IMG/VR virus record: IMGVR_UViG_3300045988_160359
Coordinates: 117,570-181,569 of that record
Direction: 5' to 3' (one strand)
DNA: 64,000 nucleotides
Source: a virus
Positions 326 to 16,713 of the stretch are shown here, piece after piece. Position numbers and translations under genes: made by a program. Positions within the stretch are counted from its first letter, which is position 1. Every line of letters begins with the position of its first letter. The notes beneath the pieces were generated by a model. That model ran no database searches. It saw only the letters and a program-made list of their open reading frames with translations, and was not told where the DNA came from.

Positions 326-1336
326 TTATTCAGTAATGGTTTTTGCTTCAATTGTTGGCATCAAATCTTCTTTGATTTCAGTTACAATCAAATCAATTAA
401 TTCAGCCTGATCAATTGTCGCATCATTAACTTTCTTACCCTTACCCAAATATTTATCAACAATCTGAGTAACACGGGGAGTGTAATATGCCTGATTCTTA
501 GCCATTAAAGTACCAACCAAATCCTGGAACTCTTCACGTAGAGCATCATAATCATAAGTTTTTGCGATAGATACTACATCACGAGCATCAGTAACAAATT
601 TATTATCATGCATTCCCGCTTCTTTATCAATAGCCTTATTCAGAGCATTTACCAAATTCTCATAAGTAAATTCAATTACAGGCTCAATATAACGGAAACG
701 ACATCCAGTCTCAGCACTGTTATCAGGAGAGCGTAGAACCAAACGAACCTTAGCCTCACCATTTTCAGTATACTTCTCAGCATAGGCATAAATATCAGCC
801 ATATCCTTAGCGATATTATTATAAGAACTAGGACAAGTAGGAATAATCTGATTATATTCAACACCAGCCTTAGTCTTAAATGTCTTATCCTTACTATGAG
901 AAATAAATACTACAGCATATCCCAGCTGAGTAATAGTGCGGAATACTTCCTCAAATTCCTTTTTCACCATATTCCAACCCTGTCCATAAGGAATACCAGA
1001 CAGAGCATCGACGCCATTCTGAGAGCAAATATACTTTTCACAGAGAGCACCGGCGATATCAACCGTATCAACGGCGATAGACTTAAATCTCTCTTTTACT
1101 TCTGGCTTTTTTAATTCGCGGAGAGTTTGCTTCATTTCACCCCAAGTGGTAATATCCTGAGCGATAACACCAGGCAAAGCATTATAACCACGCTCAAATG
1201 CCAGAATTAGAGGGGATGGCATATGAGAAGCAAATGTGGTTTTACCACTTTTCTCAGCGCCATAAACATATGTAATGTAACCAGACAGGTCACGACTAAC
1301 CTTATGAGGCTGTAGAGCCATCAAATCAATACCCAT
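326..1336 (-). CDS. AAA_24 family (Sak4-like) RecA-fold ATPase, probably a recombination/annealing helper
   Basis: 336-aa ORF with Walker A YGAEKSGKTTFA and overall AAA_24-like layout. True TAA stop at 326-328. RBS AAGGAG before the ATG at 1336. Confidence 0.6.
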   Translation of the reverse strand: MGIDLMALQPHKVSRDLSGYITYVYGAEKSGKTTFASHMPSPLILAFERGYNALPGVIAQDITTWGEMKQTLRELKKPEVKERFKSIAVDTVDIAGALCEKYICSQNGVDALSGIPYGQGWNMVKKEFEEVFRTITQLGYAVVFISHSKDKTFKTKAGVEYNQIIPTCPSSYNNIAKDMADIYAYAEKYTENGEAKVRLVLRSPDNSAETGCRFRYIEPVIEFTYENLVNALNKAIDKEAGMHDNKFVTDARDVVSIAKTYDYDALREEFQDLVGTLMAKNQAYYTPRVTQIVDKYLGKGKKVNDATIDQAELIDLIVTEIKEDLMPTIEAKTITE

Positions 1337-1487
1337 TATTTTTTCTCCTTAATATTTTTATTTTGTTCAAATGATTTTAAAACTTCATCTAATAATTTCT
1401 AGTCAATATAAAATTCATCATCATAATAAAGGGGCATTTCTGAACGATGGCCCCGAATTGGGGCCTCGTTATCTAAATGGCTCATTA

Positions 1488-2426
1488 TTAAAAATTAAAT
1501 TCTGCCTTAGAAGAAGCTGCAGCCGCTGGAGTAGTCTGGCCCTTAGAAGCCTTATACTCATCACGACGCTGTTTCATAGTTGCCAAATAAGTTTCACGAT
1601 TCGCAATCGCTGTAGTCAATTCAGAAGCAAGAATAGTATCTTCACTATCCCACTCATAAGGCTCTTTAGCTGCACCAGTAATTACGAAATCCTTACGAGT
1701 ACTCTGGACTTCACGCACAGAATCTTCACCAAACGCAGACTCTTCACGAATTTCACGCTTAATAACCTCAGATACCTGACGGCCCCAAACCTTAGTAAAT
1801 ACAGGATTAGAAGCAGTAGCACCCAAATCCTCAAAATAAGCCATGGCGCCAGCATTAGTAGCAGTAAACTCAACAGGCAAAATTTCATTACGGAAGTTAA
1901 ATACAACACCCTTAACGACTACCTTCTCAGGAGTCTTACGCTCATCATCGGCGTCAATATGAGTTACCTGAGTAATAACCATATCACACTTAAATGTATT
2001 GCGCTGAGTTTCATCTTCAGTAAGAACATTGGTAGTATGAACGAATCCACCCTCATTAGTTTTTACACTAACAAGCTCTTCCTTACCATTACGATCGGTA
2101 TAGAACTCATTCAAACCAATAGCAGAGTCAACACGAAGTTTAGCAGCCTTATCAGCGCCATCCTGCATATATGTTCCCACTACACCATCAATAATATTCT
2201 GAAGCAAAGAGTAGGTCGCATTCACACCACCCTTTGAAGTCTTCTCAGTCACATAAGTAAAATGAACAGGAACAATATTAGTCATAGCATCATCAGTTGC
2301 AATACTAATAGTTCCAGAAATAAAATTAGTTCCGGGAGCTTTAGAGTTAGGACCAGTTACCTTAGCCTCTAGAGCATGCTCGTATAGAATTCCTTCAATG
2401 TGAGTCTCATTCTTTACTTTCATCAT
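1488..2426 (-). CDS. Hypothetical protein, possibly the DNA-binding partner of the upstream ATPase
   Basis: 312-aa uninterrupted ORF in an operon with the AAA_24 gene. No confident motif. Ala/Ser/Lys-rich C-terminal tail. Confidence 0.45.
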   Translation of the reverse strand: MMKVKNETHIEGILYEHALEAKVTGPNSKAPGTNFISGTISIATDDAMTNIVPVHFTYVTEKTSKGGVNATYSLLQNIIDGVVGTYMQDGADKAAKLRVDSAIGLNEFYTDRNGKEELVSVKTNEGGFVHTTNVLTEDETQRNTFKCDMVITQVTHIDADDERKTPEKVVVKGVVFNFRNEILPVEFTATNAGAMAYFEDLGATASNPVFTKVWGRQVSEVIKREIREESAFGEDSVREVQSTRKDFVITGAAKEPYEWDSEDTILASELTTAIANRETYLATMKQRRDEYKASKGQTTPAAAASSKAEFNF

Positions 2427-3527: not shown

Positions 3528-3792
3528 TACTTAGAGTATAGCCACTCAAATTATGGCCGAGAGATTTAACGAAACAATCAAGTTCATCAACAAACACCAT
3601 ACTGCCTTTTTGATAATTTCCATTTACATAATCATAATATGAAATAAAATTAATTCCAATAATTCCATATCTTTCTGCTTTAATTCTCATAGCATCAGGA
3701 TTAGAACAAGCAATAATAGCATTTTCCTCTTTGGCCAGTAGCATCAATCTACTTGTTTTTCCAGTTCCACGTTTATCAATTATTCTATACAT
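3517..3792 (-). CDS. Small P-loop protein (Walker A GTGKTS)
   Basis: 91 aa with DKRGTGKTSRLM. TGA stop at 3517. Its start overlaps the upstream gene stop in a TAATG coupling. Confidence 0.45.
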   Translation of the reverse strand: MYRIIDKRGTGKTSRLMLLAKEENAIIACSNPDAMRIKAERYGIIGINFISYYDYVNGNYQKGSMVFVDELDCFVKSLGHNLSGYTLSNED

Positions 3793-4760
3793 TATTTTAT
3801 ACTATACCCAAATTCTTTGGCTTTAAAAAAATCTTGCCAATAGTCTTCGCGTTCATCTAATTTTGAACGCTCACATTCTTCTATTACTTCAAATGAAAAA
3901 TTCTCTACACCAATAGCTTTCATAGCTGGGTAGAGTTTATTCTTAGTAACTGGATCAGCACCTAATCCACGTTTAATATGTTGTTTCCAACGTTCAGCCA
4001 AATTTGCCGCTTGACCTACATAGCACATCTAATTAGTTAAATTGGTAATTTTATAAATCCCAGTATGAGTTCCAGAACCAATTACACGACCAATTAAATC
4101 TGTAGTAGGTTTTTCATAATAACATTTCCAAATAACTTTATTAAGAGGCTCAGGATTCCGTAAATGTTTTTCAACTTCGCGCAATTCTTTAATTTCATCT
4201 AAATCTTCTTTTGGAATTGTTAATTTATAAAAATCACTTTGAGAGCGAATTTCTTCGGCTCTTTTACTCGCTTCAACAGAAGCATTTACTTTTTCAGATT
4301 GTTCTTTAATTGCTAAATCTAATTCTTTTAATTCAATTCTCTTTTGATTAATTAAATCAGAAATAGATTGAGCGCAATCAGCCATCATTTCTTTATAATC
4401 ATTCTAATACTATTCAGTTTGAGTAGTATAATAATTACTAGCATTTTCTAATGATTTGTCTAAATTAGTCTATGCTATTTCCATATTTTTTTGATAAAAT
4501 ATATCGGCTGATTCTTTAGCTTGCTGCTCTAGCGAAAAAATACTAGATTGAACTTCGTCTCTCTTCGCTTGAAGCGAAGCTAATTCAATCTGTAATTGTT
4601 TAGTCTCACCCTCTAGTCGCCATTTTTCACCAATTAAATTATTATTTAATCGTTCAATATCTAAATTATACTCTTGTGTTTTTTTAATTTTAGGCTAGAG
4701 TATAAAATAAACAACAACTCCACCAAGAATGAGTGATAATATACAAAATAGATAGAGCAT
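3792..4760 (-). CDS. Membrane-anchored coiled-coil protein with a C-terminal GIY-YIG nuclease domain; 5 in-frame TAG codons (4695, 4470, 4410, 4404, 4029)
   Basis: ATG at 4758-4760. N-terminal TM helix MLYLFCILSLILGGVVVYFIL, then coiled coil. The GIY-YIG motif TGIYKITNLTN[TAG]MCYVGQAANLAERWKQH spans a TAG. No TAA/TGA in frame until the TAA at 3792. Confidence 0.6.
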
Positions 4761-5410: not shown

Positions 5411-6622
5411 TCAAAATATAGTATCTATTAGGCAGTCTTCAAAATTTTTATCATCCCTGAAACATTTAAAGAACCCATGTCGTAGTGTATGTTCAGTATT
5501 ATTTTTTTCCATACACTGAATTGAAACAACACGATTGAGATACTTATCAGGATTTTTTGCAAAATCAGCTTTCAAATCATCAGTTAGTCCAGATGATACT
5601 GTTCCAATTTCTACAATTTTACCCTCATTATCCAAGGCTCCAAGTCGCATAGATGTCTTCCATCCATAAAAATAGGGTTTGGTAACTGGCATATAATATC
5701 TCTCATTATCATCTATTAGTTGAAGTCCCTAATTTGCATTACTATGATTTTGAGTGTATTTATAATAATAATTACCATTTAATAATTGAGGATTAACCCA
5801 GCCAGCAAAACAATGGTCTTCTTCGAAACAATCATAAAAACTTGGTTCTTTTACTTCCCAATATTGCCAACTCTGAATTTCTTTGCCATCATAATATTTA
5901 GTTGCATCCTCAAACCCAATACAAATGCAATCAATAAAATCCATTTTTTTAATTTTAACTGAAGACCAAGCCGGACGTTTATCTGGCACATAAACAGCGT
6001 CTTTCTTCTTAAGAACGACCCCTTCTTCACCTTTATCCAATGCGGAGGCTGTAAATTCTTGGATATTGGAAGTGTGTGCTTCAGCCAATTCTAAAAAATG
6101 ATATTGAGATAAATTAAATTTATCCCAGATTGCCTTAAGAACCTGATAGCGTGTCCAAGCACCCTTATCTTGTAAATCGACTCCATTATATCTAATTACA
6201 TCATGGAGATAATAATGAATTAGACCGGACGACTGCTGACGTGTAATCGCTTCAGGAGCTAAACATCCCATAATTTTAGTCACATCTTTAGACGTTTTAC
6301 CTGGATAATAGATTTCTCCGATTAAGATAGTTCCAGAAGGAAGACAATTTAATGCTACTGCAATATGAGGAACATTATCAAGTTTTTCAGTTAGAATGCC
6401 AGTGTTTGCGCTTATATTGCGACTAAATAAATAGCTATGATGTTCAGTTTTTTCAAATTGATACCAATAACCATCTTTCTTTAATTCTGCAAAATAATTG
6501 CCACTATTACAAACTTGCGGAAACATATTCTCTTTCCCGTCTGGAAGTTTCCAGATTTTCATCGCCTGAATACATTGCGCTTCAGGGGCAAATTTATCAA
6601 TTAATTCTTGTGAAAAACTCAT
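5411..6622 (-). CDS. lig: ATP-dependent DNA ligase (T7-like) with in-frame TAG at 5729-5731 joining the NTase and OB domains
   Basis: Motif I AELKKDGYWYQ (KxDG), motif EGVVLKKKD, SSVKIKK. The track ORFs 5729-6622 and 5411-5692 share one frame with only a TAG between them, and the OB-fold-like C-terminus continues. Confidence 0.8.
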
Positions 6623-12884: not shown

Positions 12885-13256
12885 TTATCCAACTGGATCT
12901 TGAGAATTTCCAGAAAATTCATTAATTATATCATCGGTTGAAACATCTTGATGAGGATAGGTTGTATTAGCATAAGCATTATCGATACTTCGTATAATAC
13001 TTTCAAATTTAACACCATCCTTTGTATTTTCTAACGCGGCTTTTTTATAATAAAATACTTGACTCACACCATAAGCACTCCAAGGGAATGCTGCCATAGC
13101 GGTAAGCCAAGGTAATTCACCAAAATACTATTTTATTACACAATAAAATGCCAATACAATAAAACATATGGTAGTTATCCATATTAATATAGATTCTTGT
13201 ATTAGTAAGGTTTTTGAAAATTCTTTTTTCTTCTAACGCATATCTTTTTTAGCCAT
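12885..13256 (-). CDS. Holin-like small membrane protein (about 124 aa) immediately downstream of the endolysin; in-frame TAGs at 13233 and 13128
   Basis: Translates as MAKKDMR[TAG]KKKEFSKTLLIQESILIWITTICFIVLAFYCVIK[TAG]YFGELPWLTAMAAFPW..., with a TM helix. Starts 2 nt after the endolysin stop. Confidence 0.45.
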
Positions 13257-13258
13257 AA

Positions 13259-15097
13259 TTATTTCTTAGTTGTATAGGCAAGATTAATCCATCCGGCACC
13301 ACTTTTTAGCTTACCGAATCCATTTTTCTCTTCAACTATAGTATAAGCACCCTTATTTAAAACCATTACTATTTTACTAGTATTATTTGGTTGAGCGCGG
13401 ACATTTAATTTTTCAACATTAACACGAACTATATATGGGGTAAATGGTTTGGCTGGAATATAAACTATTTTACCTTCAGCATCAAATACTTTATAATCTC
13501 CACCCAATTTATCGCAAGCATTCTTAGCATTTTCTAATGAACTATATGCTCCCATTTGAGTTTTACTATCGGTCCAAGTTTTACGGATACGATATAATTG
13601 AACTTTAGTGGTAGATGAATTAGGAGTATTTGATGGAATAGATGAAGAAGTAGCATTCATCAATTTAGCCACATCAGCACGAACTGTTGCCATTGATTTA
13701 CCAAATTTAGGGAACCAATGGTTAATATCACCATGATTTGATCCTAAACCTAGAGTATTACTATCAGCGTGGCAGAGAATTGTAGGAACATTCATCCCTT
13801 TAAAATTAACTGTGCTATTTGGGTCAATATTATATTTTTTACACAAATAGGCTGTTAATTGGCAGGCTTCTTCATATACTTGCTTTAAATAGGTTTCATT
13901 AGTTAGACCATCTTCACAAATTTCGAATTGAATCCAACCATCATTACAAGAGCCTTTTGGTCCACTACCACAGCCCCAAGGGCGATAATCCCAAGGCATT
14001 GTTTGAACACATCCAACAGTACCATCAGCCATTTTACCCACCCAAGCATTTAATCCAGCTTGACGAGTAATGTGATTCCAGTCATTTTTATTTACATTTT
14101 TGCCTAATCTTGCTATTGCTTCGTTATAACCAGAATCGCCTTCATAGGGCTAAACATAACGTTTTAGCCAAGTATTATTAGCACCAGTGCTATGCCATAA
14201 AACTCCTTTAATCTGCATTTTACTTGTGCCTTTATAACAAGTGCTATTTTTCTACATACAAACAAATGGAGGGTTGCTATCTGTATATTTTAATTTACTG
14301 GTCATTGTGGGCTGTGATGCTTTTTTCAATGCAGTTTGAATTGCTGATAAAGTAGCTGGTCCAGCAATTCCATCAACAGTTAAGCCATTTTTAGACTAGA
14401 AAGAGCGAACTGCTGCTTCAGTTCCAGAACCAAAATCTCCATCAGCTCCCGCAGAACCACATGAATAACCCAGAGAAATTAAATTATTTTGTAAAGCGCG
14501 CACAGCGTCATTTCTATCTCCACGTTTAAGTAAAGCGGTTGTAGAAGTTGCAGAAGTATCACGTTCATATGATGGTGGCATAGTTTTTAAAGTCCAATAT
14601 GCTGGGCGTCCATAACCACGAATGTTTCCAGCACCAACGATTAAAGTTCTACGTTTAACACTATCACTATAATTGCCTTCAATAGTAGTAATTACATTAT
14701 TATTTACTCGTTCTACAATACCAACGTGATCAGCAGAACCATCATTGGGTTGACTAGATTTATCCCAATTATAAAAAATATAATCACCAGGTTCAGGAAT
14801 TTTAGTTCCATTTTCTTCCCATTTACTAATAGGATGATTTTTGAATAATTGAACATGTTTTTCGCATCCTACTTCTGTTGGAATAATATCTGTTAATCCA
14901 GCTTTAATCGCTATAGCAGACGCAAATCCAGAACACCAAGAGTCAGTATATTTTAATGTATAACTACGAGCTAATGGTTTATGAGAATTGTATAAATCTA
15001 CAATTTTTTTATGACTACCATCAGATTCTTTGCATCCAATATATGACTGTGCTAAATAAACGACGTATTCACGCCAAGCTTTTTCAATAGCAGTCAT
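13259..15097 (-). CDS. Multidomain endolysin (CHAP peptidase, PG_binding_1, Amidase_2, SH3-like), 612 aa, with 3 in-frame TAGs (14396, 14252, 14150)
   Basis: CHAP motifs WCSGFASA...DHVGIV. PG_binding_1 LKRGDRNDAVRALQNNLISLGY...GTEAAVRSF[TAG]SKNGLTVDGIAGPATLSAIQ. Amidase_2 MQIKGVLWHSTGANN...HWFPKFGKS. One continuous frame ending at TAA 13259. Confidence 0.8.
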
Positions 15098-15158: not shown

Positions 15159-15171
15159 AATTGGCTTATTA

Positions 15172-16422
15172 CATTTTTTGAGCAATTTCTGCAATTTTAC
15201 TACGATGAATTGTTTTTAATTCTACTTCACCATATACATCGCTACCTCTAAATATCTTAGATGCTCTACGCATACCATTATTTGCGCCAGCAAAATGCAC
15301 ATCATCAACCTAGGTCTAAGCATCGCCATCAATGATACAAATGCTGTCTTCACCAATACGCTGTAAAGCTAATTTCATTAGAGTAATGTCAAGATTTTGA
15401 GCTTCTGAAATATAAATGCCAGCATTCATACCAGTAGTATCATAACCTCTAATATCTGACATAGGTAATAGAATTAATTTTTCGCGATTCATTAATTCTT
15501 CAACGGCAATTCTATCTCCTAATTTACTAATTAATAGATTACCGATTTGAGAATCAAGAAGTTTTTCATCTCGACTGCCGGGATAAAAACCTAATTTAGC
15601 AGAATTTTTAGTTGCTACAGTATTACAGAAAATAATAACTTTATCAATTTGGCCCCGGTCAAGCATATGAAGTAAAAATCCAAGAGCGAGATAAGTTTTA
15701 CCTGTTCCTGCTGGACCTTTTAACATAGTAATTCTATTATTTACTAAGCTATCACAGGCAAGCTATTGATAAGCATCTCCTTTGATTGGTTTGACTTCAC
15801 CGAACCATCGTGAATTAAATGATTTATAGTCTAAATGTCGATAATATTCGCCATTCCAACATAAACGATCGACGATTTCTCCCTCTGTATTTTTAACAAG
15901 GATATATTCACCAATTTGAAGATTCCATTCATTTTCACTTGGATTTGTATAAAAATCACCCATACAATCATCAGACATAGTAATTTCTTTATACCCAGTA
16001 TAGTCATCAGGCTTATCCTCTTCTAACGATTGAATATTAGAAGTAAATACTCGTGCGATACTTTTTAAAGCTAAGTCATTAGTAATAAATACTATTTTTT
16101 CTTCTGGAAATAATCGCACACATTCCAAATAACAACTCAGAATTTTTGTATCGTTAGTTAGTTCAAAATCTCTTTGTGTTATATTTTGAGCATATGTATT
16201 TTGGTAATTAATAATTAAATATTGACCAAAATGCTCATCTAAATCGTGGAGAAGTTGACGAGCTGAAAATTTTACATTATCATCTTTATTAGTTGATATT
16301 TTTATATTTTCTAATTCTTGTAATGTAATTGAAGAAATAATAAAATCTTTTGGTTCATCAAACAAATTCCCCGCTTTCAGAAGCAGGCTACAGGTATCAT
16401 AGAATTGTCTTGTTTTTATCAT
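15172..16422 (-). CDS. phoH: PIN-domain + PhoH-like ATPase fusion (PhoH2-like), about 416 aa, with 3 in-frame TAGs (15763, 15316, 15310)
   Basis: N-terminal PIN (FYDTCSLL...ITLQELENIK), Walker A GPAGTGKT, and the conserved motif GDA[TAG]T[TAG]VDD aligning to PhoH GD-x-x-Q-x-DL. Track ORFs 15763-16422 and 15316-15726 share one frame. TAA stop at 15172. Confidence 0.75.
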
Positions 16423-16538
16423 TCAGTATCTTCCTCTTCTGTTTTAGATTCTTCTTCCTTTTCTTCAACAGTAAAACCAATTTTTTTAACTATTGTAGTA
16501 GGATTAGAAAGGGCCTTAATGCGAGCCTCACTCTCTGA
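16419..16538 (-). CDS. Small acidic hypothetical protein (about 39 aa) coupled (ATGA) to the PhoH2 start
   Basis: Translates as MSESEARIKALSNPTTIVKKIGFTVEEKEEESKTEEEDTE*. Could extend upstream through two TAGs. Confidence 0.25.
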   Translation of the reverse strand, partial: SESEARIKALSNPTTIVKKIGFTVEEKEEESKTEEEDTE

Positions 16539-16713
16539 CATTTTTTCAGCCTAAGTTTGTTTAACACATTCGAGCTAAGTTAAAAATACTTTGAGTAAGC
16601 CATCTAAACAAGGGATAATATAATCGGAAAAAATTATGCCAGCGAGAAAAACTAATAAATATTTAATAGTATTCACCCTTCCGTTTCTAAATTTAAATTT
16701 TTAGATACGAATA

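What the first reader, a model, noticed from the sequence alone, without database searches (positions are those of the whole stretch)
13259..15097. UAG is read as a sense codon throughout this genome (likely UAG=Gln, code-15-like)
Every gap behind a TAG-terminated track ORF that I translated by hand continues in frame as sensible protein, often inside conserved domains:
- The endolysin reads CHAP-PG_binding-Amidase_2-SH3 through 3 TAGs; one TAG falls at the invariant Gln after AVRSF in PG_binding_1.
- PhoH carries two TAGs in GDA[TAG]T[TAG]VDD, aligning with the family motif GD-x-x-Q-x-DL.
- The GIY-YIG motif, the DNA ligase OB domain, the SHMT C-terminus, the SDF symporter N-terminus and a papain-like peptidase are likewise bridged by TAG.
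- All verified true stops are TAA or TGA.
Several lysis and metabolic genes would be truncated under the standard code, so the annotation has to be redone under a recoded table.
Basis: partly seen in the sequence, partly recalled or inferred. Interest (0 to 1): 0.75.

Follow-up and report, generated by a model that had tools for sequence, protein, structure and literature searches.

The report
Phage reads TAG as glutamine
This stretch of a roughly 196-kb gut phage genome uses the stop codon TAG as a glutamine codon in about 40% of its genes and carries its own TAG-reading tRNA, which is a real feature but an already well-described kind of phage genetic-code change.

Summary
Window 13259..15097 (-) is one 612-aa endolysin (CHAP, PG_binding_1, Amidase_2, weak SH3) read through three in-frame TAGs and ended by TAA.

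The effect is window-wide and specific to TAG:
- ORFs that end in TAG are followed by a long same-frame ORF in 62% of cases. The figure is 11-13% for TAA and TGA.
- Coding density rises from 0.66 to 0.78 when TAG is read as sense, and falls to 0.64 when TGA is read as sense.

The amino acid is glutamine:
- TAG sits on the invariant Q of the PhoH motif and of PG_binding_1.
- In related phages, 12 of 20 comparable TAG positions carry CAA or CAG.
- Gln scores 78 by BLOSUM62; the next best residue scores 7.

A phage tRNA with anticodon CUA lies at 39667..39740 in a tRNA array of about 30 genes.

"Throughout the genome" is overstated. Only 25 of 64 genes contain TAG. It is enriched in the lysis cassette and a YcaO/radical-SAM cluster, and absent from 4.5 kb-scale blocks of RNA-repair genes and CAG-preferring genes.

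This is the known code-15 recoding of gut phages. Public protein catalogues already translate this lineage with TAG=Q.

The most unusual thing found is a side observation: the phage's only canonical tRNA-Gln gene is split by a conserved, structured ~120-nt insert of unknown class.

The parts
13259..15097 (-). Endolysin gene, 612 aa: CHAP, PG_binding_1, Amidase_2 and a weak SH3_3. In-frame TAG at nt 14396-14398, 14252-14254 and 14150-14152. Ends in TAA.
   Evidence: TAG234 aligns to Q in 5 of 5 PDB PG_binding_1 homologs. Relatives carry CAA or CAG at codons 234 and 316.
15169..16422 (-). PIN-PhoH gene, 417 aa. In-frame TAG at nt 15763-15765 (aa 220), 15316-15318 (aa 369) and 15310-15312 (aa 371).
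   Evidence: Residue 371 is Q in 120 of 120 homologs. It is CAG in the sister clade, which has no in-frame TAG, and Q in PDB 3B85.
12885..13256 (-). Membrane protein directly downstream of the endolysin (holin-like by position, not by any family match). TAG at aa 8 and 43.
   Evidence: TAG43 is kept in the recoded relatives L005 and L009-L011, and is CAA in L003 and L007.
16419..16676 (-). Small membrane protein upstream of PhoH. TAG at aa 34 and 42.
   Evidence: All relatives have TGG (Trp) at aa 34 and TAC, TGT or TGC at aa 42. Both TAGs are private to the window strain.
39667..39740 (-). tRNA with anticodon CUA (amber suppressor). Class I, U1.U72 mismatch, G73, CCA encoded.
   Evidence: Rfam tRNA, 55 bits. 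It is identical or differs by 1 nt in five related IMG/VR contigs. Its acceptor-end features match tRNA-Gln in a 386-tRNA reference set.
40653..40849 (-). tRNA-Gln(UUG)-type gene interrupted in the anticodon loop by a structured insert of 119-121 nt.
   Evidence: One search finds 12 compensatory base pairs and none broken. In one search, the 11 best matches of the in-silico spliced product are all tRNA-Gln(UUG).
36237..50922 (-). tRNA array: 28 genes found by ARAGORN plus 2 more found by Rfam.
3792..4760 (-). GIY-YIG nuclease gene with 5 in-frame TAG.
5411..6622 (-). ATP-dependent DNA ligase gene with TAG at aa 298.
24415..25638 (-). Serine hydroxymethyltransferase gene with TAG at aa 58 and 340.
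   Evidence: Codon 340 is CAG in the 96%-identical relatives.
43203..44006 (-). Papain-like peptidase (Peptidase_C1) gene with TAG at aa 24 and 140.
44295..45470 (-). Sodium:dicarboxylate symporter gene with TAG at codon 3, downstream of a strong ribosome-binding site.
51837..59190 (-). YcaO, two radical-SAM genes and neighbouring genes. This is the most TAG-rich block: 25 TAG among 90 Gln-type codons.
   Evidence: One search gives p=1.3e-5.
18989..24337 (-). TAG-free block: flotillin-like protein, phosphoesterase, kinase and RNA ligase.
25884..35561 (-). TAG-free block: RlaP, cREC_REC, major-vault-protein-like and DUF2828/DUF7788 genes.

Best explanation
The window is part of a roughly 196-kb tailed-phage genome from human gut metagenomes in which UAG is decoded as glutamine (genetic code 15).

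Shown:
- In-frame TAGs sit inside intact, conserved genes.
- Only TAA and TGA terminate genes.
- TAG positions correspond to Gln in homologs.
- The phage encodes a canonical-looking tRNA with anticodon CUA.

Inferred:
- After infection the phage tRNA(CUA) is transcribed, charged with Gln by the host system, and competes with host release factor 1.
- Genes that contain TAG can then be made in full only once the suppressor has accumulated. These include the endolysin and its two flanking membrane proteins, PhoH, a homing-type GIY-YIG nuclease, metabolic genes and a YcaO/radical-SAM cluster.
- TAG-free genes are translatable from the start. These include the small-ORF block upstream of the window, gyrase, DnaB, the SSB-like and AAA_24 proteins, and the RNA-repair/vault module.
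- Recoding therefore also acts as a timing gate on late and lysis functions, as proposed for other recoded phages.
For: TAG is sense, and specifically TAG:
- The same-frame continuation statistic separates TAG from TAA and TGA.
- Coding density and gene length improve only with TAG as sense.
- Pfam domains run across TAGs in at least 7 families.

TAG is Gln:
- PhoH aa 371 is Q in 120 of 120 homologs. It is CAG in four syntenic loci of a sister clade with no in-frame TAG.
- Endolysin aa 234 aligns to Q in 5 of 5 solved PG_binding_1 homologs.
- Of 20 window TAG positions with a non-TAG codon in a relative, 12 have CAA or CAG. CAA is two mutations away from TAG.
- Summed BLOSUM62 is Q 78, E 7, K -3.
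- Q accounts for 14 of 28 aligned residues in close lineages, against a 3% background (p=1e-14).

Suppressor tRNA:
- It is found and is conserved in relatives.
- The combination of U at position 1, G73 and a 71-nt length occurs only in tRNA-Gln among the isotypes of a 386-tRNA reference set. The U1.U72 mismatch itself is seen only in the suppressor copies.
- Once the anticodon arm is excluded, the nearest non-suppressor tRNA is a tRNA-Gln(CUG) whose anticodon loop differs only at G36 to A.

Mosaic distribution:
- TAG is over-represented in the lysis cassette (7 of 27, p=0.03) and in the YcaO block (25 of 90, p=1e-5).
- There is no TAG in six CAG-preferring genes (0 of 101, p=6e-6) or in the two TAG-free blocks (0 of 143, p=4e-8).
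- About 20 small ORFs upstream of the window carry 1 TAG in total.

Precedent:
- The same phenomenon, mechanism and lysis bias are described for gut phages, including clades of about 200 kb (bioRxiv 10.1101/2021.08.26.457843).
- TAG=Gln has peptide-level support in crAss-like phages (abstract of PMC9523058, seen).
- Public catalogues already translate this lineage with TAG=Q.
Against: - The charging identity of the tRNA(CUA) is not established. Position 1-72 is a U.U mismatch rather than U-A, positions 2-3 are C-G pairs, and the anticodon arm is one base away from Clostridia tRNA-Lys(CUU).
- Three or four TAG positions align to Trp, Tyr or Cys in relatives. These are the small membrane protein at aa 34 and 42, and GyrA codon 3, which is probably upstream of the true start.
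- TAG is not confined to late genes. The RecJ-like protein (5), PIF1 (3), ligase (1), SHMT (2) and PhoH (3) carry it too, so a clean early/late switch is not shown.
- No release factor or Gln-tRNA synthetase gene was seen in the window or within 10 kb on either side.
- The seven YcaO TAGs fall in variable columns. Q is the top residue at only two of them.
- There are no expression or peptide data.
Confidence: 0.9

Rival explanations
1. TAG is a sense codon but is decoded as an amino acid other than Gln (Trp, Tyr or Lys), because the suppressor tRNA derives from, or is charged like, another isoacceptor.
For: - The anticodon stem-loop CCUGA-CUCUAAA-UCAGG is one base away from that of Clostridia tRNA-Lys(CUU).
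- TGG aligns to TAG at aa 34 of the small membrane protein in all relatives, and TAC, TGT or TGC aligns at aa 42.
- Related phages carry structurally different tRNA(CUA) genes in the same slot, one of them with a long variable arm.
Against: - The BLOSUM sum for Q is 78, against W -3 in close lineages and K -3 overall.
- The invariant-Q columns of PhoH and PG_binding_1 are occupied by TAG.
- All 63 reference tRNA-Lys have G1-C72 or G1-U72 and A73, unlike this tRNA.
- The tRNA is class I, which excludes bacterial Tyr, Leu and Ser types.
Confidence: 0.05
2. The TAGs are genuine stops. The genes would then be pseudogenes, split genes or assembly errors, or would depend only on rare leaky read-through.
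For: Under code 11 the fragments are still individually open ORFs. The two TAGs in the small membrane protein are private to this strain and hit a conserved Trp, so they could be inactivating.
Against: - Only TAG shows same-frame continuation; TAA and TGA do not.
- The same TAG positions are conserved in independent assemblies at 80-97% protein identity.
- TAG exchanges with CAA and CAG between strains.
- Essential-looking domains are bridged without frameshifts.
- A dedicated tRNA(CUA) is present.
Confidence: 0.03
3. UAG encodes pyrrolysine. ARAGORN labels the tRNA 'tRNA-Pyl'.
For: Only the automatic ARAGORN label, which it applies to any CUA anticodon.
Against: - The tRNA has a normal D-loop with GG, a TTCGAAT T-loop and two bases between the acceptor and D stems. 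By established knowledge these are not tRNA-Pyl features.
- No Pyl synthesis or PylRS domains appear among the roughly 60 proteins scanned.
- TAG aligns to Gln.
Confidence: 0.005

Closest known systems
Stop-codon-recoded gut phages using code 15, as surveyed by Borges et al. (bioRxiv 10.1101/2021.08.26.457843): Lak, crAss-like, Garnet, Amethyst, Jade, Sapphire and Agate clades
   Same: - A low-GC gut phage with in-frame TAG that aligns to Gln.
- A phage-encoded TAG suppressor tRNA.
- TAA and TGA as the only terminators.
- TAG concentrated in lysis genes and a homing-type nuclease, with other modules TAG-free.
- Close relatives that have no in-frame TAG and rarely use TAG as a stop: 1 of 25 and 0 of 23 genes.
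   Different: - I could not place this lineage in any of their named clades, because no terminase lies in the window.
- No RF2 or aaRS 'code-change module' was seen in the 84 kb examined.
- Several replication genes (RecJ-like, PIF1, ligase) also carry TAG.
crAss-like phages with experimentally supported TAG=Gln (PMC9523058)
   Same: The same reassignment, and a suppressor tRNA is present.
   Different: - A different phage group and probably a different host phylum. The CHAP/Amidase_2/SH3 endolysin architecture suggests a Gram-positive host on general knowledge, and the tRNA-Gln exons are closest to Lachnospiraceae.
- There is no peptide evidence here.
E. coli supE (glnV) amber suppressor, i.e. 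tRNA-Gln with anticodon CUA
   Same: An anticodon loop of the form CU-CUA-A; the tRNA-Gln link itself comes from the comparison with a tRNA-Gln(CUG) loop that differs only at position 36 (G to A). G73 and a weak 1-72 position, which are GlnRS identity elements by established knowledge.
   Different: - The body sequence is not that of any tRNA-Gln seen here: best 69% outside the anticodon arm.
- Position 1-72 is a U.U mismatch and positions 2-3 are C-G pairs.
- Charging was not tested.
Theta (HDV-like) ribozymes next to suppressor tRNAs in recoded gut phages (PMC10879173)
   Same: A recoded gut phage with a tRNA array, an RNA ligase gene, and a small self-cleaving ribozyme candidate in the array: a twister-P1-like element at 46504..46555, E=1.7e-10.
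   Different: - No HDV-like match was found anywhere in the array at E<=2.
- The suppressor tRNA encodes its own CCA, unlike 95% of theta-associated tRNAs.

Membership tests
Code-15 (TAG=Gln) recoded phage | In-frame TAG inside otherwise intact conserved genes, with gene fragmentation relieved only when TAG is read as sense | tested here: met
Code-15 (TAG=Gln) recoded phage | TAG positions correspond to glutamine in homologs | tested here: met
   One search gives Q 78 against a next-best 7, with p=1e-14.
Code-15 (TAG=Gln) recoded phage | TAA and TGA keep their stop function | tested here: met
   Reading TGA as sense lowers coding density to 0.64. There is no same-frame continuation after TAA or TGA. 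47 genes end in TAA and 16 in TGA.
Code-15 (TAG=Gln) recoded phage | Phage-encoded suppressor tRNA with anticodon CUA | tested here: met
   39667..39740 (-).; conserved in relatives.
Code-15 (TAG=Gln) recoded phage | The suppressor tRNA is charged with Gln | not testable with these tools
   U1, G73 and the 71-nt length are Gln-like, but the anticodon arm is Lys/Arg-like. Charging needs an experiment.
Code-15 (TAG=Gln) recoded phage | Peptides with Gln at TAG | not testable with these tools
   There are no proteomic data.
Code-15 (TAG=Gln) recoded phage | Accessory code-change genes such as RF2 or an aaRS (frequent but not obligatory) | tested here: not met
   None among the Pfam hits of the window genes or in the 10-kb flanks. 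About 110 kb of the genome was not examined.
Code-15 (TAG=Gln) recoded phage | Uneven use of TAG: lysis and late genes recoded, a subset of genes compatible with the standard code | tested here: met
   Expression timing itself was not tested.
Pyrrolysine decoding of UAG | tRNA-Pyl architecture and pyl genes | tested here: not met
   A canonical cloverleaf with GG in the D-loop and a TTCGA T-loop. No Pyl-related domains in the scanned proteins.
Code 4 (TGA=Trp) | In-frame TGA within genes, with better gene calls when TGA is read as sense | tested here: not met
Group I intron in a tRNA anticodon loop (considered for the insert in tRNA-Gln at 40653..40849) | A match to the group I core, a terminal G at the intron 3' end, and a length of about 200 nt or more | tested here: not met
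   No Rfam intron or ribozyme match at E<=5. The insert is 119-121 nt. Both possible 3' ends are C or U, not G.

The most novel reading that the evidence does not exclude
The code change may be controlled at the tRNA level in a way not yet described.

- The phage's only canonical tRNA-Gln gene (40653..40849) is split in its anticodon loop by a conserved, covarying ~120-nt structured RNA. This RNA matches no known intron or ribozyme family.
- It lies 0.9 kb upstream of the suppressor tRNA.
- In related phages the same slot holds three unrelated tRNA(CUA) genes.
- The genome also carries a full RNA-repair kit: RNA ligase, kinase, phosphoesterases, RlaP and cREC_REC.

If the insert is a new kind of tRNA intron that is removed by self-cleavage or by phage enzymes and then resealed by the phage ligase, it would gate the supply of normal Gln-tRNA relative to the suppressor. 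It might alternatively shield the tRNA from host anticodon nucleases.
Probability: 0.15. Interest if true: 0.75.

Novelty: new member of a known kind. Interest (0 to 1): 0.3.

Why it matters
For annotation, it matters in practice. Under the standard code the endolysin, PhoH, SHMT, a transporter and a whole YcaO/radical-SAM cluster are cut into fragments. For biology, it adds one more jumbo-phage lineage, probably infecting Clostridia, to the list of code-15 phages. It shows the same lysis-gene bias and the same close kinship with relatives that lack in-frame TAG, which supports the view that recoding arises easily and serves as a timing gate. It does not change what is known about recoding. 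The split tRNA-Gln gene beside the suppressor is the part that could lead somewhere new.

Tried and rejected
1. Nucleotide search of the endolysin gene against GenBank phage records found no match. A protein search with the vault-like gene reached only distant huge phages, LR756500/501/503, at 41-42% identity.

2. I first argued that the tRNA array covers 19 amino acids and that the suppressor fills the empty Gln slot. I withdrew this when the Rfam tRNA model found a split tRNA-Gln gene that ARAGORN had missed.

3. I searched bacterial genomes for tRNAs that share the suppressor's anticodon stem, hoping for tRNA-Gln. The hits were Arg(ACG) 65, Lys 58 and Gln 1, so the anticodon arm says nothing in favour of Gln.

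4. The residue tally at the seven YcaO TAG positions in 120 homologs is weak. Q tops only two columns.

5. Raw stop-to-stop ORF coverage is not discriminating. Removing TAA inflates it most, simply because TAA is the commonest triplet in AT-rich DNA. I replaced this measure.

6. A first pattern search for split tRNA-Gln genes returned only tandem tRNA-Gln pairs, which are false positives.

7. Theta/HDV-like ribozymes next to the suppressor: none found.

8. ARAGORN in intron mode parsed the split gene as 'tRNA-Arg(tcg)' with an odd extra arm. I rejected this in favour of the Rfam alignment and the exon matches to tRNA-Gln.

9. GyrA codon 3 (TAG) is probably upstream of the real start, judging by the N-termini of relatives, so it was not counted as evidence.
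Full report
**What is there**

The window is 34% G+C and every gene lies on the minus strand. Read from 15097 down to 13259, the flagged region is one open frame of 612 codons. It has TAG at codons 234, 282 and 316, and its first TAA is at 13259-13261. With the TAGs masked as X, Pfam finds four domains:
- CHAP at residues 53-142.
- A complete PG_binding_1 at 196-253, running across TAG234.
- Amidase_2 at 293-444, running across TAG316.
- A sub-threshold SH3_3 at 564-607.

**Is it more than chance, and is it specific to TAG?**

I took ORFs of at least 80 aa under the standard code and asked how long the same frame stays open after the stop.

| Stop that ends the ORF | n | Median next same-frame ORF (codons) | Share at least 50 codons |
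|---|---|---|---|
| TAG | 26 | 73 | 62% |
| TAA | 66 | 10 | 11% |
| TGA | 30 | 6.5 | 13% |

A simple gene caller scored on codon usage gives the following.

| Reading | Coding density | Genes | Mean length (aa) |
|---|---|---|---|
| Code 11 | 0.661 | 74 | 190 |
| TAG as sense | 0.781 | 67 | 248 |
| TGA as sense | 0.641 | 68 | 201 |

The raw ORF-coverage figure is not informative, because removing the very common TAA inflates every frame.

Pfam matches run across TAGs in several more genes:
- PIN-PhoH: match 218-411, TAGs 220, 369 and 371.
- GIY-YIG: match 234-314, TAG244.
- SHMT: match 4-389, E=5.5e-140, TAGs 58 and 340.
- Peptidase_C1: match 38-218, TAG140.
- YcaO.
- The SDF symporter, whose gene starts AAGGAG-N7-ATG AAG TAG. 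It would lose 42 residues of its first membrane segment under code 11.

**Which amino acid?**

Three lines agree on glutamine.

1. Conserved columns.
   - PhoH residue 371 is Q in 120 of 120 database homologs.
   - The 67%-identical sister clade has no in-frame TAG in this gene and has CAG at that codon.
   - PDB 3B85 has Q there too.
   - Endolysin TAG234 aligns to Q in five of five solved PG_binding_1 proteins.

2. Codon-level comparison with syntenic loci from related phages at 62-97% protein identity.
   - Of 20 window TAG positions that have a non-TAG codon in at least one relative, 12 show CAA or CAG.
   - CAA is two mutations away from TAG, so this is not mutational neighbourhood.
   - TAGs in the relatives mostly align to window CAA or CAG.

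3. Scoring.
   - Summed BLOSUM62 over all aligned residues is 78 for Q, 7 for E and -3 for K.
   - In the close lineages Q is 14 of 28 aligned residues, against a 3% background (p=1e-14).

The exceptions are few:
- His at PhoH 369.
- Ile and Thr at two variable sites.
- Trp or Tyr/Cys at three sites. Two are private to the window strain, in a small membrane protein. One is probably outside the real GyrA coding region.

The seven YcaO TAGs lie in variable columns and add little.

**Mechanism visible in the window**

A tRNA array at 36237..50922 holds 28 ARAGORN tRNAs and two more found by the Rfam model. One, at 39667..39740 (-), has anticodon CUA.

Its features:
- An ordinary class I cloverleaf scoring 55 bits, with GG in the D-loop, a TTCGAAT T-loop, an encoded CCA, a U1.U72 mismatch and G73.
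- ARAGORN's 'tRNA-Pyl' label is only a naming convention. Nothing else suggests pyrrolysine.
- It is identical or differs by one base in five related IMG/VR contigs.
- It is not a recent copy of any other tRNA in the window; the best match is 69%.

Evidence on charging identity is mixed:
- In a reference set of 386 tRNAs taken from the fetched loci, the combination of U at position 1, G73 and a 71-72-nt length is found only in tRNA-Gln. Asn shares U1-A72 and G73 but is longer. The U1.U72 mismatch itself is seen only in the suppressor copies. All tRNA-Lys have G1 and A73.
- Excluding the anticodon arm, the nearest non-suppressor tRNA is a tRNA-Gln(CUG) whose anticodon loop differs only at position 36.
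- Against this, the anticodon arm itself is typical of Arg(ACG) and Lys tRNAs.

Charging with Gln is therefore inferred from the codon evidence, not shown from the tRNA.

No release factor or aminoacyl-tRNA synthetase was found among the window proteins scanned or among the annotated genes within 10 kb on either side. About 110 kb of the genome was not seen.

**How evenly is TAG used?**

It is not used 'throughout'. After dropping three false ORFs that overlap tRNA genes, 25 of 64 genes contain TAG. TAG makes up 59 of 526 Gln-type codons, or 11%.

TAG is enriched in:
- The lysis neighbourhood, meaning the endolysin plus two flanking membrane proteins: 7 of 27, p=0.03.
- The YcaO/radical-SAM block: 25 of 90, p=1.3e-5.

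The GIY-YIG nuclease also has five TAGs.

TAG is absent from:
- Two long blocks, 18989..24337 and 25884..35561: 0 of 143, p=4e-8.
- Six genes that strongly prefer CAG over CAA: AAA_24, the YorF-like protein, flotillin-like protein, RNA ligase, vault-like protein and DUF2828. Together these have 0 of 101, p=6e-6.

Outside the window, in 100%-matching relatives:
- A run of about 20 small ORFs has a single TAG.
- DnaB has none.
- The RecJ-like protein has five and PIF1 has three.

The pattern fits a timing gate on lysis and other late or accessory functions. It is not a clean early/late split, and timing was not measured.

**Relatives and what is already known**

- The phage belongs to a group of contigs of roughly 160-200 kb from human gut metagenomes.
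- A sister clade at about 67% protein identity and 38-41% G+C keeps the same gene order. It has no in-frame TAG in 48 called genes and almost never uses TAG as a terminator: 1 of 25 and 0 of 23.
- An 82%-identical lineage has CAA or CAG at most of the window's TAG positions in the loci examined.
- Low G+C, rare TAG stops, acquisition of a suppressor tRNA and TAGs appearing in lysis genes is the path described by Borges et al. for gut phages, including clades of about 200 kb.
- TAG=Gln has metaproteomic support in crAss-like phages (abstract of PMC9523058, seen).
- Public protein catalogues already hold full-length translations of this lineage. The PhoH gene of locus L009 translated with TAG=Q is exactly protein P0020, and no other substitution reproduces it.

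The finding is therefore real and correctly interpreted, but it is a new member of a known kind.

**What I did not expect**

The Rfam tRNA model found a tRNA gene at 40653..40849 (-) that is interrupted after CAGGA-CUU(U) by 119-121 nt.

- With the insert removed in silico, its 11 best matches among the 386 reference tRNAs are all tRNA-Gln(UUG). The closest come from Lachnospiraceae genomes at 82-84% identity.
- The split gene, including the insert, is present in every related contig found.
- It occurs in two sequence types that differ by many compensatory changes. RNAalifold predicts a closing helix at the exon junction and three internal hairpins. Twelve pairs change on both sides and none is broken.
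- The insert matches no Rfam intron or ribozyme at E<=5.
- It is far shorter than known bacterial tRNA group I introns and does not end in G.
- Both possible junctions give a Gln anticodon, UUG or CUG.
- I found no description of such an element in the literature searches I ran.

The gene order tRNA-Val, split tRNA-Gln, tRNA(CUA), tRNA-Tyr is conserved. In the second lineage, however, the suppressor slot holds two other, unrelated tRNA(CUA) genes, one with a long extra arm. That lineage is also TAG-recoded.

The same genome carries an RNA ligase, a kinase, phosphoesterases, RlaP and cREC_REC. It also has a twister-like ribozyme candidate in the array.

Whether the insert is spliced, and by what, cannot be decided with these tools. 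I report it as the most novel reading the data allow, with low probability.

**Verdict**

| Item | Verdict |
|---|---|
| Observation | Confirmed |
| Interpretation | Supported, with 'throughout the genome' and 'annotation has to be redone' toned down |
| Best explanation | Code-15 recoding driven by a phage suppressor tRNA (confidence 0.9) |
| Novelty | New member of a known kind |
| Interest | 0.3 |

Noticed in passing
window 40653..40849 (-): A tRNA-Gln(UUG)-type gene is split in the anticodon loop by a 119-121-nt structured insert. The insert has 12 compensatory base pairs between two phage lineages, matches no Rfam intron or ribozyme, and is too short for a group I intron. It was found only in this group of 160-200 kb gut phages.
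   Followed up: partly
L145:7965-8054, L149:6282-6354 and their relatives, versus window 39667..39740: The slot between the split tRNA-Gln and tRNA-Tyr holds three unrelated tRNA(CUA) genes in related TAG-recoded phages. One has a long variable arm. This suggests repeated replacement of the suppressor, and possibly different charging.
   Followed up: partly
window 16419..16676 (-), codons 34 and 42: Two TAGs nine codons apart are private to this strain. They replace a Trp conserved in all relatives (TGG) and a Tyr/Cys (TAC, TGT or TGC) in a small membrane protein beside the lysis genes. They are either tolerated Gln substitutions or a knock-down of this gene.
   Followed up: partly
window 51837..59190 (-): A RiPP-like cluster in a phage. 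It contains a YcaO (592 aa), two radical-SAM proteins (477 and 508 aa), unannotated genes, and a 151-aa protein with a Ser/Gly/Asn/Phe-rich tail (58735..59190) that could be a precursor peptide. It has the highest TAG density in the window and atypical codon usage. YcaO homologs sit on many contigs of about 180-200 kb.
   Followed up: partly
window 21208..35561 (-) and 44157..44262 (-): An RNA-repair and ribonucleoprotein module free of TAG: AAA_33 kinase, RNA ligase, RlaP nucleotidyltransferase, two phosphoesterases, cREC_REC, a major-vault-protein-like protein (829 aa) and a DUF2828/DUF7788 protein. There is also a sub-threshold Y-RNA-like (YrlA) match next to tRNA-Ile (37.9 bits, E=2.4e-5).
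   Followed up: no
window 46504..46555 (-): A twister-P1-like ribozyme candidate just upstream of tRNA-Ser(GCU) in the tRNA array. It scores 49.4 bits, below Rfam's gathering score of 67.2, with E=1.7e-10 in the local search. One stem is truncated.
   Followed up: partly
window 47458..47527 (-) and 41028..41103 (-): Two degenerate tRNA-like elements that ARAGORN missed, at 35.8 and 24.3 bits. The first has a CAU anticodon and a poorly paired acceptor stem.
   Followed up: no
window-wide, e.g. 326..2426, 18989..20377, 22925..24337, 30753..34942: There are two codon-usage classes. Six genes use CAG almost exclusively for Gln (92 CAG, 9 CAA), have the highest codon-usage scores and contain no TAG. 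Most other genes prefer CAA, and these are the ones that carry TAG.
   Followed up: partly
L001-L004 (sister clade loci): Syntenic relatives at about 67% protein identity and 38-41% G+C have no in-frame TAG and use TAG as a terminator in 1 of 48 genes. They look like the state that precedes recoding.
   Followed up: partly
window 54499..55639 (-): My gene caller left this stretch empty. The public annotation of an identical relative (L155) places two genes here, of 284 and 99 aa, with 5 and 3 in-frame TAGs.
   Followed up: no
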